Source of the DNA: a phage
Strand: one strand, 5' to 3'
DNA: 64,000 nucleotides
Sequence record: OR896157.1
Position 1 is the first letter of the stretch, and each line of letters begins with the position of its first letter. A program made the position numbers and the translations under genes. Shown here in pieces: positions 46,330 to 52,151 of the stretch. Under the pieces are notes generated by a model. The model had not been told where the DNA came from. It made no database searches and worked only from the letters and a program-made list of their open reading frames with translations.

Positions 46330-46585
46330 TTATTGTTGTATTTATATGCAACAACACCCCGTCCGAAGACAGGGCGTAAGAATCGACAGCACCACCTACT
46401 GGCAGATGGCCTGCAGAAGTTCATTCCCAGCGACTCGGAGGCATCAGTCTCGCCCCTGGGAATATAGCGTCGTGGAGGTGTCACTTTGCAGGTGATTAAC
46501 AACCGGTGGCTCCGTAGAACCGTTGCGGCAAGGGCTAACCTTCTCTTCTAACACGACGTCTTCATACGAGAGCTGCAACTCTCTG
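46330..46585 (-). ncRNA. GC-rich structured non-coding island (candidate ncRNA)
   Basis: ~250 nt far more GC-rich than flanks; minus-strand CCCUGUC-UUCG-GACGGGG hairpin at 46353-46370; reading frames through it give R/P/C/G-rich junk. Confidence 0.3.
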
Positions 46586-46587
46586 TA

Positions 46588-46788
46588 TTAGCTTAGATGC
46601 TTAACCGCATCGCAATCGTAAACAAAATAACTCGTTCCATATGGGTCAGAGATATTATTGAAATAATCATAAACTTTCTGTTCAGCTTCTCCATCAGAGT
46701 CAGCATCTACTGTGAACAGTTCTTCTTTAATTCTTCCGCCGTCTTCCATGTATTCTGCGATTTTATAACGTACTTGAACTAAACGCAT
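46588..46788 (-). CDS. hypothetical acidic protein
   Basis: 66-aa ORF. Confidence 0.4.
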   Translation of the reverse strand: MRLVQVRYKIAEYMEDGGRIKEELFTVDADSDGEAEQKVYDYFNNISDPYGTSYFVYDCDAVKHLS

Positions 46789-46880: not shown

Positions 46881-46965
46881 TGGTGCATCAAGAGGGATTC
46901 GAACCCTCAATCCTTTCGGCGGGGCATTTTAAGTGCCCTGTGTATACCAGTTCCACCATTGATGC
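46881..46965 (-). tRNA. tRNA-Leu (anticodon UAA), class II
   Basis: acceptor GCAUCAA/UUGAUGC, anticodon loop CUUAAAA, 13-nt variable arm, T-arm GAGGG-UUCGAAU-CCCUC. Confidence 0.8.
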
Positions 46966-46971
46966 GAAATT

Positions 46972-47056
46972 TGGAGCTAGGAGTGAGATTCGAACTCACG
47001 AAGGGATACCCGGCGGATTTGCAATCCGCTGCCTTTGGCCACTCAGCAACCCTAGC
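46972..47056 (-). tRNA. tRNA with class-II architecture and anticodon GCA (Cys-type)
   Basis: acceptor GCUAGGG/UCCUAGC, anticodon stem-loop GCGGA-UUGCAAA-UCCGC, 13-nt variable arm CGGGUAUCCCUUC; assignment tentative. Confidence 0.5.
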
Positions 47057-47060
47057 AAAT

Positions 47061-47138
47061 TGGTCGAGGTAGAGGGATTCGAACCCGTCGACCTGTGGAT
47101 TAGAAGTCCACTGCTCTATCCAGCTGAGCTATACCCCG
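47061..47138 (-). tRNA. tRNA-Arg (anticodon UCU)
   Basis: acceptor CGGGGUA/UACCUCG, D GCUC..GAGC, anticodon loop CUUCUAA; T-stem has only 3 clean pairs. Confidence 0.7.
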
Positions 47139-47142
47139 AGTG

Positions 47143-47268
47143 TGTTCAGACAGGACTCGAACCTGTAAGCATGTTCTTGCGGCGTTTTACCACCGTCGTC
47201 AGCATATGATTCAATATGCGAACTCAAAAGGTGTTGGACCCCTTGTCTACCAATTCCAGCACTGAACA
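47143..47268 (-). ncRNA. 126-nt tRNA-like stable RNA candidate (possibly rnaC/rnaD-type)
   Basis: 7-bp acceptor-like helix UGUUCAG/CUGAACA and canonical T-arm ACAGG-UUCGAGU-CCUGU enclose ~93 nt with D-loop-like AAUUGGUAGA but no canonical anticodon arm. Confidence 0.4.
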
Positions 47269-47278
47269 ACTTTATTTA

Positions 47279-47503
47279 TTACATATCAACTTGAGTAAAC
47301 CAGTTGATTTTGAAATACTCATCAAAATGAAGAGCAGGTTCAACTTGAGTATCTTCCTCAAGAAGAATTAAATTCTTTCTTACAATCGGGTCAAGATGAG
47401 TTGTGTTTAAGCAGCTATCATGCCAATATGTAAGAACTCGATTTGATTCAGTATCAACGAGATAACGAACATTCATATCAGGATGTCGGTACAGATTAAT
47501 CAT
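47279..47503 (-). CDS. hypothetical protein
   Basis: 74-aa ORF. Confidence 0.45.
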   Translation of the reverse strand: MINLYRHPDMNVRYLVDTESNRVLTYWHDSCLNTTHLDPIVRKNLILLEEDTQVEPALHFDEYFKINWFTQVDM

Positions 47504-47506
47504 AAT

Positions 47507-47956
47507 CTATTTCTCTTGAAGCATTTTGCGTAAACGATAGAGCTGATTACAAAATTCCTTTTCAGTCAAAACTGTTTCAGAGATTTTGTTCTTGCCCATA
47601 CTGTGGGTTAATGTTGCGTTACGAGTAGCAATCAATGCTTTTTGGAATCCAGTGTTTTGAGCAAGTGCGTCATAAGCTCCAGTTAAAAGATTCTGGTATG
47701 CTTCAGATGCTCGATGAATAGGAACACCCTTCCAATAAAGTGTTTGAGTAGGCCACCAACGCTTCTTCTTACCTTTGAACTTTGCTGCCTTTCCAACCAA
47801 TGTGCAAACATGAGCTTGCATTTCAGGGTTAGAAAATTTGAGGGATTGTAAAAATCCCTCCATTGAAGCACATTCTACACCATCATAAACGAAAGCATGT
47901 GGTGCAAAGTTACTTAAAGCACAAGAAGGATATGAACTTCCAGAGCCAATGTCCAT
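47507..47956 (-). CDS. NADAR/YbiA-like protein (DUF1768), candidate ADP-ribose glycohydrolase
   Basis: 149-aa ORF; SNFAPHAFVYDGVECASMEGFLQSLKF resembles remembered E. coli YbiA core (SNFA..DG..SEHYFQAQKF); downstream W...ALxAT pattern also shared. Confidence 0.5.
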   Translation of the reverse strand: MDIGSGSSYPSCALSNFAPHAFVYDGVECASMEGFLQSLKFSNPEMQAHVCTLVGKAAKFKGKKKRWWPTQTLYWKGVPIHRASEAYQNLLTGAYDALAQNTGFQKALIATRNATLTHSMGKNKISETVLTEKEFCNQLYRLRKMLQEK

Positions 47957-49971: not shown

Positions 49972-49978
49972 AATTTGT

Positions 49979-50070
49979 ACGGAACGCCTGGATTCGAACC
50001 AGGTTAAATTGCGATTGACGTCACAATTTATCTTATGAAGGCCATGCCTCTACCATATCCGAACGTTCCG
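49979..50070 (-). tRNA. atypical tRNA-like gene / possible pseudo-tRNA with CAU-type anticodon loop (UUCAUAA) and a 9-bp hairpin insertion
   Basis: perfect 7-bp acceptor CGGAACG/CGUUCCG and T-arm CCUGG-UUCGAAU-CCAGG, but weak D and anticodon stems and a 26-nt perfect hairpin before the T-arm. Confidence 0.35.
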
Positions 50071-50121
50071 TCAAAAACGCTACTCGGCTTACGGCTTAGG
50101 CAATTCCTCGAACCGATAATT

Positions 50122-51699: not shown

Positions 51700-51785
51700 T
51701 GGCGGGCCGTGCAGGTATCGAACCTGCCTAGTCATTTCTGACACGGATTAACAGTCCGTCGCTTACCCTCTCAGCCAACGACCCA
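51700..51785 (-). tRNA. tRNA with anticodon GUU (Asn-type) and a 15-nt variable arm
   Basis: acceptor GGGUCGU/ACGGCCC, anticodon stem-loop ACGGA-CUGUUAA-UCCGU, extra hairpin GUCA-GAAA-UGAC, T-arm GCAGG-UUCGAUA-CCUGC. Confidence 0.55.
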
Positions 51786-52063: not shown

Positions 52064-52151
52064 TGGTGGGGAGTGATGGAGTCGAACCACCCGAGTCGCA
52101 ATGACAACAGATTTACAGTCTGCACCGCTACCTCTACGGAATTAACTCCCC
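52064..52151 (-). tRNA. tRNA-Tyr (anticodon GUA), class II
   Basis: acceptor GGGGAGU/ACUCCCC, anticodon stem-loop GCAGA-CUGUAAA-UCUGU, long variable arm; 5 nt between acceptor and D-stem. Confidence 0.75.

What the first reader, a model, noticed from the sequence alone, without database searches (positions are those of the whole stretch)
47143..47268. 126-nt tRNA-like RNA next to tRNA-Arg
A 7-bp acceptor-like helix and a canonical T-arm (ACAGG-UUCGAGU-CCUGU) enclose about 93 nt that contain a D-loop-like AAUUGGUAGA but no recognisable anticodon arm. T4 encodes two small stable RNAs (rnaC/rnaD) beside its tRNA-Arg. This element is in the analogous neighbourhood and may be their counterpart or a tRNA with a large insertion.
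Basis: partly seen in the sequence, partly recalled or inferred. Interest (0 to 1): 0.5.

Follow-up and report, generated by a model that had tools for sequence, protein, structure and literature searches.

The report
Anticodon-less tRNA-Leu-like phage RNA
This is a real, conserved gene in T4-like phages of Klebsiella, Enterobacter and relatives for a tRNA-shaped RNA that descends from a leucine tRNA but carries a roughly 50-base structured rod where the anticodon loop should be, so it cannot read codons; it is a new family, distinct from T4's rnaC and rnaD, and its function is unknown.

Summary
On the minus strand, 47268..47142 has a 7-bp acceptor stem, U8, a tRNA-Leu-type D arm, a class-II variable arm and a canonical T arm. 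It lies 4 nt upstream of tRNA-Arg(UCU). A 5-bp stem sits where the anticodon stem belongs, but it encloses 52 nt, not 7: a second 4-bp helix, a GA-rich internal loop and an apical hairpin.

Homologues occur in more than 200 T4-like phage genomes (Karam-, Jiaoda-, Marfa-, Kanagawa-, Winkler- and Kagamiyamavirus, and Citrobacter phages). They fall into four sequence types with one shared architecture. On a curated alignment, 22 of 36 pairs change on both sides.

A covariance model built from 16 members found a held-out type at 62.9 bits. Its next-best hits were genuine tRNA-Leu(UAA) genes (35.9-39.4 bits). T4 rnaC scored 16.9 bits and rnaD did not score.

The window's true rnaC orthologue is at 50116..49978, so the element is not the counterpart of rnaC or rnaD. 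The "tRNA with a large insertion" reading is right.

No anticodon, discriminator base or CCA is conserved, which argues against decoding. The best reading is a non-decoding tRNA mimic processed with the tRNA cluster, whose extended arm is the working part. Its function is inferred, not shown. No Rfam family or paper describing it was found.

The parts
47142..47268 (-). Whole tRNA-Leu-like RNA gene: 126 nt plus the discriminator C at 47142
   Evidence: Family model R1 scores it 104.6 bits, E = 1.8e-28. ARAGORN -i draws a cloverleaf over the same span. It is 100% identical in Enterobacter phage PG7.
47262..47268 (-). Acceptor stem, 5' strand (UGUUCAG)
   Evidence: It pairs 7 of 7 with 47143-47149. 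Four of the 7 pairs change on both sides across the family, for example AUUUGUG/GACAAAU in Kanagawavirus.
47243..47259 (-). D arm (CUG-GAAUUGGUAGA-CAA), preceded by U8 and G9 at 47261-47260
   Evidence: U8, A14, A15, G18, G19 and A21 are invariant in 16 sequences. The D loop is of tRNA-Leu type, and the model's best non-family hits are tRNA-Leu genes.
47238..47242 (-). Anticodon-stem equivalent, 5' strand (GGGGU)
   Evidence: It pairs with 47181-47185. Three of its 5 pairs change on both sides across types, such as ACCGG/CCGGU versus GUUGG/CCGAC. Within type A, the U-A pair becomes A-U on an untouched MAFFT alignment.
47186..47237 (-). 52-nt insert replacing the 7-nt anticodon loop. It comprises the bulge CCAA, helix 2 (CACC/GGUG), the internal loop UUUUGA/GAC, a 3-bp extension, the apical hairpin and the bulge GUAAA
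   Evidence: tRNA-Leu genes align to the model with this block skipped (*[48]*). ARAGORN -i calls a 47-nt 'intron' here. Helix 2 is paired in 100% of cells, with 3 of 4 pairs changed on both sides.
47202..47219 (-). Apical hairpin GCAUAU-UGAAUC-AUAUGC
   Evidence: The stem covaries, for example A-U to G-C in L015 and CCUGG/CCAGG to CCCGA/UCGGG in type B. The loop sequence differs by type: UGAAUC, UGCAUC, UUGGUAC, UUUAAGCAC and UCGUAA.
47181..47185 (-). Anticodon-stem equivalent, 3' strand (ACGCC)
47167..47180 (-). Class-II-type variable arm (GCA-AGAACA-UGC) followed by UU
   Evidence: It is a 3-bp stem with 2 of 3 pairs changed on both sides. The last U, the U48 equivalent, is invariant.
47150..47166 (-). 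T arm ACAGG-UUCGAGU-CCUGU
   Evidence: It is paired in 100% of cells, with 3 of 5 pairs changed on both sides. U54, U55, C56 and A58 are invariant.
47143..47149 (-). Acceptor stem, 3' strand (CUGAACA)
   Evidence: No CCA follows it. The next bases are C-ACU and then tRNA-Arg.
47061..47138 (-). tRNA-Arg(tct), the gene immediately downstream on the same strand
   Evidence: ARAGORN and Rfam at 59.7 bits. The 4-nt spacing implies a shared precursor. That step is inferred.

Best explanation
**What it is.** The element is a gene for a roughly 127-nt tRNA-shaped RNA that does not decode. It descends from a class-II tRNA of the leucine type. It keeps the parts that build the tRNA 'L': the acceptor stem, U8, the D arm with G18 and G19, the variable arm and the T arm. 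The 7-nt anticodon loop has been replaced by a 52-nt irregular rod, made of a 4-bp helix, a GA-rich internal loop and an apical hairpin. This anatomy and descent are shown by the tool results.

**How it most likely works (inferred).**
1. It is transcribed with the phage tRNA subcluster (element, Arg, tRNA(GCA), Leu, Thr).
2. The host tRNA-processing enzymes cut it out. RNase P makes its 5' end. RNase P cleavage 5' of tRNA-Arg leaves a 4-nt trailer, which is trimmed, possibly followed by CCA addition.
3. It folds into an L shape, which makes it stable and recognisable by tRNA-binding proteins.
4. It cannot pair with a codon, so its activity lies in the extended arm. That arm probably serves as a protein-binding handle.

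On this reading the RNA acts as a tRNA mimic: a decoy, sponge or scaffold for a host or phage factor that binds tRNA. The partner and the biological effect are unknown.
For: **Anatomy and conservation**
- All cloverleaf parts are present. ARAGORN -i draws them independently.
- Homologues were found in 7 or more groups of T4-like phages.
- On the curated alignment A3, 90.8% of cells are paired, against 34-45% when partners are slid. 22 of 36 pairs change on both sides, and 0 of 500 shuffles reach the observed score.
- On an untouched MAFFT alignment of type A alone, 95.9% of cells are paired and 4 pairs change on both sides.
- The unconstrained minimum-energy fold of the Metamorpho copy equals the model structure.
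- The tertiary-contact nucleotides U8, A14, A15, G18, G19, A21, U48, U54, U55, C56 and A58 are invariant.

**Descent from tRNA-Leu**
- Model R1 finds the held-out Ursula type at 62.9 bits.
- Its next hits are tRNA-Leu(UAA) of this window (39.4 bits) and of T4 (35.9 bits), aligned with the insert skipped.

**Not decoding**
- The bases flanking the insert give no conserved 7-nt loop with U33.
- Database labels for homologues disagree: Phe, Ser, Thr, Ala, OTHER and pseudogene.
- The discriminator varies: C here, A in myPSH1140, Jiaoda- and Marfavirus, and U in Winklervirus.
- No CCA is encoded, whereas all four neighbouring tRNAs encode CCA.

**Under constraint**
- Identity to Mineola is 80.5%. 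The flanking tRNAs are at 81-91% and the upstream ORF at 78%.
- No ORF is conserved across types.

**Co-processing**
- It lies on the same strand as tRNA-Arg, with a 4-nt spacer.
- No terminator or sigma-70-type promoter site falls between the upstream ORFs, the element and tRNA-Arg (47061-47600); the one promoter-like site found lies at 46693-46666.
- T4 tRNAs are known to mature from multi-tRNA precursors, and those lacking CCA have it added by the host. This is background knowledge, not tested here.
Against: - There is no expression, end-mapping or binding data of any kind.
- The role of the arm is pure inference. The internal-loop sequence is not the same in all types: UUUGAAAC/UGAGUAAG in types B and C, UUUUGA/GAC in type A (this window), and different again in Ursula.
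- In this window's copy the anticodon-stem equivalent has a G.G mismatch. The model structure lies 8.6 kcal/mol above the computed minimum-energy fold.
- Type A can also form an alternative pairing of helix-2 3' strand with the anticodon-stem 3' strand. That pairing is 100% compatible within type A.
- The Moonvirus CF1 copy is decayed (30.7 bits, with a broken acceptor stem and T arm), so the gene is dispensable in at least one lineage.
- T4 itself lacks the element.
Confidence: 0.6

Rival explanations
1. It is the orthologue or direct counterpart of the T4 small stable RNAs rnaC (species 1) or rnaD (species 2).
For: - It is a small tRNA-like gene inside the tRNA cluster, next to tRNA-Arg, as rnaD is in T4.
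- rnaC also has an acceptor-like stem and a GGUUCGAAUCC T arm.
- The motif UGAGUAAG in types B and C resembles CUGAGUAAGG in rnaD.
Against: - The true rnaC orthologue is at 50116..49978 in this window (79% over 139 nt).
- R1 scores rnaC at 16.9 bits, below ordinary tRNAs, and does not hit rnaD.
- Kanagawaviruses carry both an rnaC-like gene and this element.
- In rnaD the GAGUAAG is one strand of a covarying helix: GUAAG/CUUAC in T4 and AUAAG/CUUAU in JS98. It is not an internal loop, so the motif match looks coincidental.
- The gene order relative to tRNA-Arg is the opposite.
Confidence: 0.03
2. It is a functional tRNA gene interrupted by a short intron. The roughly 47-nt insert is removed, for example by an endonuclease plus phage Pnk and RNA ligase, to give a decoding tRNA.
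For: - ARAGORN -i reads this copy as tRNA-Phe(AAA) with a 47-nt intron at position 32/33, leaving the loop C-UAAAAC.
- T4-like phages encode RNA repair enzymes. This is background knowledge.
- An unrelated viral contig (L115) has an expanded tRNA-Leu-like gene with an intact AUUAAAA loop next to a 49-nt insertion.
Against: - The ARAGORN register works only for the Karamvirus copy. Types B, C and D give no 7-nt loop with U33 (reasoning from the sequences).
- The implied anticodons differ between relatives.
- The insert is too short for a group I intron, there is no Rfam intron or ribozyme hit, and there is no bulge-helix-bulge motif.
- An A34-A-A anticodon is not used in bacteria. This is background knowledge.
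- The insert's own helices covary, which points to selection on the unspliced form.
- The discriminator is not conserved.
Confidence: 0.07
3. It is an inactivated tRNA-Leu gene with no trans-acting role. It is either a slowly decaying pseudogene or is kept only as a cis-acting structured spacer that helps process or protect the polycistronic tRNA precursor.
For: - It is often the first structured unit after an ORF and just before tRNAs.
- The CF1 copy is decayed.
- T4 does without it.
- tRNA finders label it a pseudogene.
Against: - Compensatory changes occur in every helix, including the insert, across 7 or more groups of phages. This argues for selection on the whole fold, not only on RNase P recognition.
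- Total length is held at 123-129 nt in all four types despite unrelated insert sequences.
- Its position in the cluster is not fixed. It is last in Kanagawavirus and internal in Ursula.
Confidence: 0.15
4. It is a chargeable tRNA-Leu body, used either as a leucyl donor outside the ribosome or to titrate LeuRS. The idea rests on bacterial LeuRS ignoring the anticodon and the variable arm.
For: - The Leu-type D arm, the A15 and U48 equivalents and the G18-G19 spacing are invariant.
- A73 is present in the Jiaoda-, Marfa- and myPSH1140 copies.
- Most unrelated expanded tRNA-Leu-like genes in viral contigs have A73, and several are followed by CCA.
- That LeuRS identity does not depend on the anticodon is background knowledge.
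Against: - The discriminator is C in this window and in Kanagawavirus, and U in types C and D. A73 is the main LeuRS identity element in E. coli (background knowledge).
- No CCA is encoded.
- No co-occurring transferase gene was identified.
Confidence: 0.06

Closest known systems
Class-II tRNA-Leu: phage tRNA-Leu(UAA) at 46881-46965 in this window, T4 tRNA-Leu and host tRNA-Leu
   Same: - Both have a 7-bp acceptor stem, U8 and a 3-bp D stem with a GAAUYGGUAGA loop.
- Both have a stem-loop variable arm, U48 and a GGUUCRAGUCC T arm.
- tRNA-Leu genes are the best non-family hits of the family model, at 39.4 and 35.9 bits.
   Different: - The 7-nt anticodon loop is replaced by 52 nt, so there is no anticodon.
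- No CCA is encoded and the discriminator is not A in this copy.
- The Rfam tRNA model and default ARAGORN do not detect it.
T4 rnaC (species 1 RNA), whose orthologue in this window is at 49978-50116
   Same: - Both are small, tRNA-shaped RNAs with an acceptor-like stem and a T arm.
- Both are encoded inside the tRNA cluster of a T4-like phage.
- Both are about 125-140 nt with an expanded middle.
- The function of both is unknown (PMC3014915, PMC9697503).
   Different: - No detectable homology exists beyond generic tRNA features (16.9 bits).
- rnaC lacks the Leu-type D arm and has tandem U.U mismatches in its acceptor stem.
- Both genes coexist in this window and in Kanagawavirus.
T4 rnaD (species 2 RNA)
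   Same: Both are adjacent to tRNA-Arg. rnaD shares a short GAGUAAG string with types B and C.
   Different: - rnaD has no T arm and no D arm.
- It gives no model hit and no BLAST hit in the window.
- It lies downstream of tRNA-Arg, not upstream.
- The shared string is helical in rnaD.
Non-translating pseudo-tRNAs, such as Bacillus cereus tRNA-Other (PMC3399842)
   Same: Both have a tRNA-like fold, are flagged 'tRNA-Other' by gene finders and do not function in decoding. The proposal is that both act through tRNA mimicry.
   Different: tRNA-Other has normal tRNA size and a normal anticodon arm, and it is chromosomal. No sequence relation was tested.
tmRNA tRNA-like domain, and YrlA/Y-RNA tRNA-like modules
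   Same: A tRNA acceptor and T-arm 'top half' is joined to a long non-tRNA helix where the anticodon arm would be.
   Different: - The element has no G3.U70, no tag reading frame and no pseudoknots. ARAGORN tmRNA mode finds nothing.
- The YrlA model scores 23.5 bits against a gathering score of 69. That match spans the T arm plus the D arm of the next tRNA.
- The topology is not permuted as it is in YrlA.
tRNA-scaffolded RNAs: engineered tRNA scaffolds and herpesvirus MHV68 tRNA-like/miRNA transcripts (from background knowledge)
   Same: A tRNA body gives processing and stability to a foreign stem-loop. In engineered scaffolds the cargo replaces the anticodon loop, exactly as here.
   Different: Those are artificial or eukaryotic-viral systems. 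Nothing here shows that the insert acts as independent cargo.

Membership tests
Canonical tRNA (tRNA-Leu, class II) | 7-bp acceptor stem | tested here: met
   UGUUCAG/CUGAACA pairs 7 of 7. Across the family 96.4% of cells are paired and 4 pairs change on both sides.
Canonical tRNA (tRNA-Leu, class II) | D arm and T arm with the universal tertiary nucleotides (U8, A14, G18, G19, A21, U54, U55, C56, A58, G53-C61) | tested here: met
   All are present and invariant in 16 sequences. The T stem is 100% paired.
Canonical tRNA (tRNA-Leu, class II) | 5-bp anticodon stem closing a 7-nt loop with U33, an anticodon and a purine at position 37 | tested here: not met
   The stem is present but encloses 52 nt. 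No 7-nt loop with U33 can be rebuilt in types B, C or D.
Canonical tRNA (tRNA-Leu, class II) | Long stem-loop variable arm | tested here: met
   GCA-AGAACA-UGC. Two of 3 pairs change on both sides.
Canonical tRNA (tRNA-Leu, class II) | Recognition by tRNA gene models | tested here: not met
   ARAGORN in default mode finds nothing. The Rfam tRNA model gives no hit at E up to 10 for this copy, nor at E up to 5 for other types. It is found only with the intron option, as 'tRNA-Phe(aaa)'.
Canonical tRNA (tRNA-Leu, class II) | A73 discriminator and 3' CCA (Leu identity and chargeability) | tested here: not met
   The discriminator is C here and varies A/C/U in the family. No CCA is encoded, whereas the four adjacent tRNAs encode CCA. 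Post-transcriptional CCA addition and charging cannot be tested with these tools.
T4 rnaC (species 1 RNA) | Sequence and structure homology to T4 rnaC | tested here: not met
   The rnaC orthologue lies at 50116..49978. R1 scores T4 rnaC at 16.9 bits. A MAFFT alignment shows identity only in the T arm.
T4 rnaD (species 2 RNA) | Sequence homology to T4 rnaD and a position just 3' of tRNA-Arg | tested here: not met
   There is no BLAST match in the window and no model hit. The element is 5' of tRNA-Arg.
Intron-containing tRNA (group I or bulge-helix-bulge) | A group I catalytic core or a bulge-helix-bulge motif, with exons that restore a 7-nt anticodon loop | tested here: not met
   The insert is 52 nt. 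No intron or ribozyme family scores at E up to 10. The flanks do not restore a conserved loop. Actual splicing cannot be tested here.
tmRNA | tRNA-like domain with G3.U70, a tag reading frame and pseudoknots | tested here: not met
   ARAGORN tmRNA mode finds nothing. Pair 3-70 is U-A. The total length is 127 nt.
YrlA / Y RNA-like | Match to the Rfam model RF02553 | tested here: not met
   The score is 23.5 bits against a gathering score of 69, and the match spans two genes.

The most novel reading that the evidence does not exclude
The element is one family within a widespread, unrecognised class of phage-encoded tRNA-Leu scaffolds that carry cargo. The idea is that tRNA-Leu is recognised by its processing enzymes and by LeuRS without reference to the anticodon or variable arm. 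Phages of many lineages have therefore repeatedly inserted 30-55-nt structured modules into the anticodon loop or variable arm of a Leu-type tRNA body. The result would be stable tRNA-mimic effector RNAs, for example sponges for tRNA-targeting defence nucleases or for translation factors.

The lead is a pattern scan followed by an acceptor-pairing test. It found 24 distinct genes of this kind in unrelated viral contigs and 2 bacterial MAGs.
Probability: 0.15. Interest if true: 0.8.

Novelty: new variant of a known kind. Interest (0 to 1): 0.55.

Why it matters
T4's tRNA-cluster small RNAs rnaC and rnaD have had no known function for decades (PMC3014915, PMC9697503, PMC12685909). This element is a third, independent family of tRNA-shaped RNA in the same genomic niche.

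It has a clear evolutionary origin in tRNA-Leu. It also comes in four natural variants that share one architecture but differ in sequence. That gives a ready-made mutational series for experiments.

It is present in many Klebsiella and Enterobacter phages that are being developed for therapy. In their records it is currently unannotated or given contradictory labels: tRNA-Phe, Ser, Thr, Ala, OTHER, pseudogene or "hypothetical protein".

If it acts as a tRNA mimic against host factors, it would add an RNA-based layer to the recently recognised contest between phage tRNAs and host nucleases that target tRNAs.

Tried and rejected
- **Rfam.** A gathering-threshold scan of the whole window and permissive scans of this locus and of three other types matched no family. 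The weak YrlA and plastid-UTR hits come from adjacent T and D arms.
- **Direct alignment to T4 rnaC and rnaD** and BLAST. Only T-arm identity was found. The similarity to rnaD's GAGUAAG was dropped once the JS98 rnaD showed that string to be helical.
- **RNAalifold on the naive MAFFT alignment A2**. It recovered only the acceptor stem, the T arm and part of the hairpin, because a 1-nt register shift separates the types. I therefore built an N-padded curated alignment (A3). I checked for bias with an untouched within-type alignment (A6) and with unconstrained folds.
- **Alternative fold for type A**, two local hairpins. Hairpin 'a' breaks in Jiaodavirus (74% of cells paired). Hairpin 'c' cannot be excluded.
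- **Protein-coding reading.** The 46-aa ORF at 47129..47269, which some records annotate as a hypothetical protein, is not conserved across types.
- **Promoter and terminator scan**. It found nothing flanking the element. My by-eye T4-early-promoter reading upstream (GTTTAC...) did not hold up on spacing, so I do not claim it.
- **E. coli chromosomes** gave no BLAST match.
- **The metagenome scan** returned only the known types plus one short variant, L273.
- **Literature searches** found no description of the element. Miller et al. 2003 could not be retrieved under the PMC id I tried.
- **Neighbour-gene Pfam survey** of the unrelated expanded tRNA-Leu-like genes showed no common partner gene.
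Full report
**1. Where we are**

The window is a T4-like phage of the genus Karamvirus. The 201 bases around the finding are 100% identical to Klebsiella phage vB_KpnM_VPA32, and 99.0% identical to Enterobacter phage PG7 (whose copy of the 126-nt element is 100% identical). All tRNA genes and flanking ORFs in this part of the window are on the minus strand. The element must be read on that strand too.

**2. The observation**

Read 5' to 3' from 47268 to 47142, the RNA is:

UGUUCAG-UG-CUG-GAAUUGGUAGA-CAA-GGGGU-[52 nt]-ACGCC-GCAAGAACAUGC-UU-ACAGG-UUCGAGU-CCUGU-CUGAACA-C

The element ends 4 nt before tRNA-Arg(tct) at 47138-47061.

In fact a 5-bp stem stands exactly where the anticodon stem belongs: GGGGU with ACGCC, with one G.G mismatch in this copy. 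It closes 52 nt where a tRNA has 7.

ARAGORN in default mode and Rfam miss the gene. ARAGORN with introns allowed draws the same cloverleaf and reports a 47-nt "intron" in the anticodon loop. That call explains the "tRNA-Phe" label in the VPA32 GenBank record.

**3. It is a conserved family**

BLAST finds the full element in 144 phage records. A divergent form occurs in 57 more.

I collected four sequence types:

| Type | Phage groups and examples |
|---|---|
| A | Karamvirus (this window); Jiaodavirus PKO111, Mineola, Metamorpho |
| B | Marfavirus Marfa, Potts1; some Jiaodavirus; Kanagawavirus PEi26, ZX14 |
| C | Winklervirus CBH8, Kc304; Kagamiyamavirus EcS1 |
| D | Citrobacter phage Ursula, Salmonella phage KM16 |

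A decayed copy is present in Moonvirus CF1.

The acceptor, D and T regions are near-identical between types. The middle is almost unalignable in sequence. Total length nevertheless stays at 123-129 nt.

**4. The structure**

All types fit one architecture:

- a cloverleaf with a class-II variable arm;
- an anticodon-stem equivalent (for example ACCGG/CCGGU, GUUGG/CCGAC, GGUGA/UCGCU, UCUUG/CAGGA);
- a 3-4 by 4-5 nt internal loop;
- a second 4-bp helix (GCUU/AGGC, CUCU/AGAG, CACC/GGUG, GGUA/UGCC);
- a purine-rich internal loop;
- an apical hairpin of 5-6 bp, whose loop sequence is specific to each type.

MAFFT mis-registers the types by one base, so I fixed the columns by hand and passed the alignment through with N padding (A3). 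On A3:

- 90.8% of cells are standard pairs, against 34-45% when partners are slid by 1-3 columns;
- 22 of 36 pairs change on both sides;
- none of 500 shuffles reaches the observed covariation score.

A hand-fitted alignment leans towards its own structure, so I added three controls.

- An untouched MAFFT alignment of type A alone gives 95.9% of cells paired and compensatory changes in four pairs. These lie in the anticodon-stem equivalent, the hairpin extension, the hairpin and the T stem.
- The unconstrained minimum-energy fold of the Metamorpho copy is exactly the model structure. The Potts1 and Ursula folds contain the anticodon-stem equivalent, helix 2 and the hairpin.
- ARAGORN -i finds the scaffold on its own.

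Two caveats apply to this window's copy. Its model fold lies 8.6 kcal/mol above the computed minimum. Type A can also pair the 3' strand of helix 2 with the 3' strand of the anticodon stem. That alternative is compatible with all type A sequences but has no compensatory change and does not exist in types B to D.

The nucleotides that build the tRNA elbow and core are invariant: U8, A14, A15, G18, G19, A21, U48, U54, U55, C56 and A58.

**5. What it descends from**

A covariance model built from 16 members, with type D held out (R1), gave these scores:

| Target | Score |
|---|---|
| Held-out Ursula copy | 62.9 bits (E = 2e-16) |
| This window's tRNA-Leu(UAA), 46884-46965 | 39.4 bits |
| T4 tRNA-Leu | 35.9 bits |
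| T4 rnaC | 16.9 bits |
| T4 rnaD | no hit |

The two tRNA-Leu genes align end to end with the 48-position insert skipped. The element is therefore a tRNA-Leu-type body whose anticodon loop has been replaced.

**6. It is not rnaC or rnaD**

- In T4, rnaD and rnaC lie just downstream of tRNA-Arg.
- T4 rnaC has an obvious orthologue elsewhere in this window, at 50116..49978 (79% identity over 139 nt, E = 4e-29). ARAGORN had mis-called a 95-nt "tRNA-Met" there.
- R1 gives T4 rnaC 16.9 bits, less than ordinary tRNAs, and does not hit rnaD.
- rnaD has no match in the window. BLAST finds it only in phages of Escherichia, Shigella, Yersinia and relatives, including T4 (Tequatrovirus) and JS98 (Dhakavirus).
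- Kanagawaviruses carry an rnaC-like gene immediately upstream of this element.
- The string UGAGUAAG, shared by types B and C with rnaD, is part of a covarying helix in rnaD (T4 GUAAG/CUUAC, JS98 AUAAG/CUUAU). In this family it lies in an internal loop.
- Adjacency to tRNA-Arg is not conserved either. In myPSH1140 a tRNA(GCA) gene sits between the two. In EcS1, CF1 and Ursula the neighbours are tRNA-Cys, tRNA-Gly and tRNA-Gln.

**7. It does not look like a decoder**

- The bases flanking the insert do not restore a 7-nt loop with U33 in types B, C or D.
- Only the Karamvirus copy can be read that way, as loop C-UAAAAC with anticodon AAA, and only in a stem register that fails in Jiaodavirus.
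- Database labels for homologues are Phe, Ser, Thr, Ala, OTHER, "abnormal" and pseudogene.
- The discriminator is C here, A in myPSH1140, Jiaoda- and Marfavirus, and U in types C and D.
- No CCA is encoded, whereas the four tRNAs that follow all encode CCA.
- The insert is far too short for a group I intron, and no intron or ribozyme family matches it.
- No reading frame is conserved.

**8. Most likely mechanism**

*Shown:* a conserved RNA that covaries along its whole length, with a complete tRNA top half and core, and a roughly 60-nt rod in place of the anticodon arm.

*Inferred from T4 tRNA biology (background knowledge: multi-tRNA precursors, RNase P, 3' trimming, host CCA addition to T4 tRNAs that lack CCA):*

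- It is co-transcribed with tRNA-Arg, tRNA(GCA), tRNA-Leu and tRNA-Thr.
- RNase P cuts it out at its 5' end and at the 5' end of tRNA-Arg.
- It is trimmed at the 3' end and accumulates as a stable L-shaped RNA.

*Inferred from the anatomy:* since it cannot pair with a codon, the constrained length and conserved architecture of the arm suggest a handle for a protein. The GA-rich internal loops add to this. Types B and C have AGUA opposite GAA, which resembles a loop-E or bulged-G motif. Type A has tandem G.A potential. I propose a tRNA mimic that sequesters or recruits a tRNA-binding factor.

I rate the identity and anatomy at about 0.9 and this functional reading at about 0.3.

The main rivals are a cis-acting processing spacer or slowly decaying pseudogene, a spliced tRNA, and a chargeable Leu body.

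Its constraint is comparable with its neighbours. Identity to Mineola is 80.5%, against 81-91% for the three tRNAs and 78% for the upstream ORF.

**9. Comparison with what is known**

- No Rfam family matches any type.
- None of the papers found in the searchable library describes the element. rnaC and rnaD are still described as having unknown function (PMC3014915, PMC9697503, PMC12685909).
- In kind it is closest to T4 rnaC, a tRNA-shaped small RNA in the tRNA cluster.
- By descent it is closest to tRNA-Leu.
- In design it is closest to tRNA scaffolds in which a foreign stem-loop replaces the anticodon loop.
- It fails the defining tests for tRNA (anticodon loop), rnaC and rnaD (homology), tmRNA, YrlA and intron-bearing tRNAs.

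I file it as a new variant of a known kind.

**10. A wider lead, only partly followed**

I scanned for a Leu-type D loop and a T arm separated by 68-92 nt. I then tested the hits for a perfect 7-bp acceptor stem. This gave 24 distinct genes in unrelated viral contigs and two bacterial MAGs.

- The family model scores them only at tRNA-Leu level, 31-48 bits, so their inserts are unrelated to this family.
- Rfam's tRNA model accepts some of them with 36-56-nt insertions in the anticodon loop or the variable arm. ARAGORN misses them.
- Some keep an intact anticodon loop (L115: AUUAAAA). Others do not.
- Most have A73.
- Their neighbouring genes show no common theme.

Expansion of a tRNA-Leu body may therefore be a recurrent theme in phages. 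I have not established that.

**11. Verdict**

The feature is real, conserved and structured. It is a new tRNA-Leu-derived family of tRNA mimics and is not the counterpart of rnaC or rnaD. Its function is unknown. Interest: moderate, 0.55.

Noticed in passing
window 49978-50116 (minus strand): This is the true orthologue of T4 rnaC (species 1 RNA): 79% identity over 139 nt, E = 4e-29. It lies between tRNA-Trp and tRNA-Gly. ARAGORN mis-calls part of it as a 95-nt 'tRNA-Met' (49977-50071), and Rfam has no family for it.
   Followed up: partly
window 46330-46600 (minus strand): A GC-rich non-coding stretch of about 270 nt lies after the small ORF at 46588-46788. It ends in a strong hairpin followed by a U-rich tail (GCCCUGUCUUCGGACGGGGUGUUGUU). 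Its 3' half is conserved just downstream of tRNA-Thr in Jiaodavirus, and most of its length (query 19-223) in EcS1. BLAST finds 191 phage records. There is no Rfam hit and no similarity to rnaC or rnaD. It is a candidate for a second unannotated structured RNA.
   Followed up: partly
window 52067-52151 (minus strand): Rfam finds a tRNA here at 39.1 bits that ARAGORN misses. The sequence reads as a class-II tRNA-Tyr (anticodon loop CUGUAAA, ending ACCA).
   Followed up: partly
window 46972-47056 and 51700-51784 (minus strand): Two tRNAs have class-II-style long variable arms but unexpected identities. One is an 85-nt tRNA with anticodon GCA (Cys), a Tyr/Ser-like D arm and U73. The other is an 85-nt tRNA-Asn(GUU).
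   Followed up: no
L115 1327-1459, L097 6199-6326, L091 258-374, L235 7267-7382, L051 370-491 and about 20 more loci: These are unrelated viral contigs and 2 bacterial MAGs. They carry tRNA-Leu-like genes with a perfect acceptor stem, a Leu-type D arm and a T arm, plus 30-55 extra nt in the anticodon loop or variable arm. ARAGORN misses them. Some pass Rfam's tRNA model with giant insertions.
   Followed up: partly
L018 1005-1520 and L026 1340-1815 (Kanagawavirus PEi26, ZX14): An ORF-free block of about 500 nt holds an rnaC-like gene, then this element, then a conserved stretch of about 170 nt that ends in a terminator-like hairpin. That makes three putative small RNAs in a row.
   Followed up: no
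L024 1501-1624 (Citrobacter phage CF1, Moonvirus): This copy of the element is decayed. G18 has become A in the D loop, the T stem is broken and the 3' acceptor strand is not complementary (30.7 bits). The gene has apparently been lost in this lineage.
   Followed up: partly
L273 765-868 (metagenome contig JGI24890J29729_1007360): This is a short relative of 104 nt (60.5 bits). It has the acceptor GGUUCAG/CUGAACC and only about 21 nt enclosed by the anticodon-stem equivalent. It may be a minimal or intermediate form of the family.
   Followed up: no
window 47181-47242 (type A copies): GGGG(U)/CACC and GGUG/(A)CGCC allow an alternative two-hairpin fold that competes with the extended rod. The 3' hairpin is compatible with all type A sequences. 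A conformational switch is possible, but nothing here shows one.
   Followed up: partly
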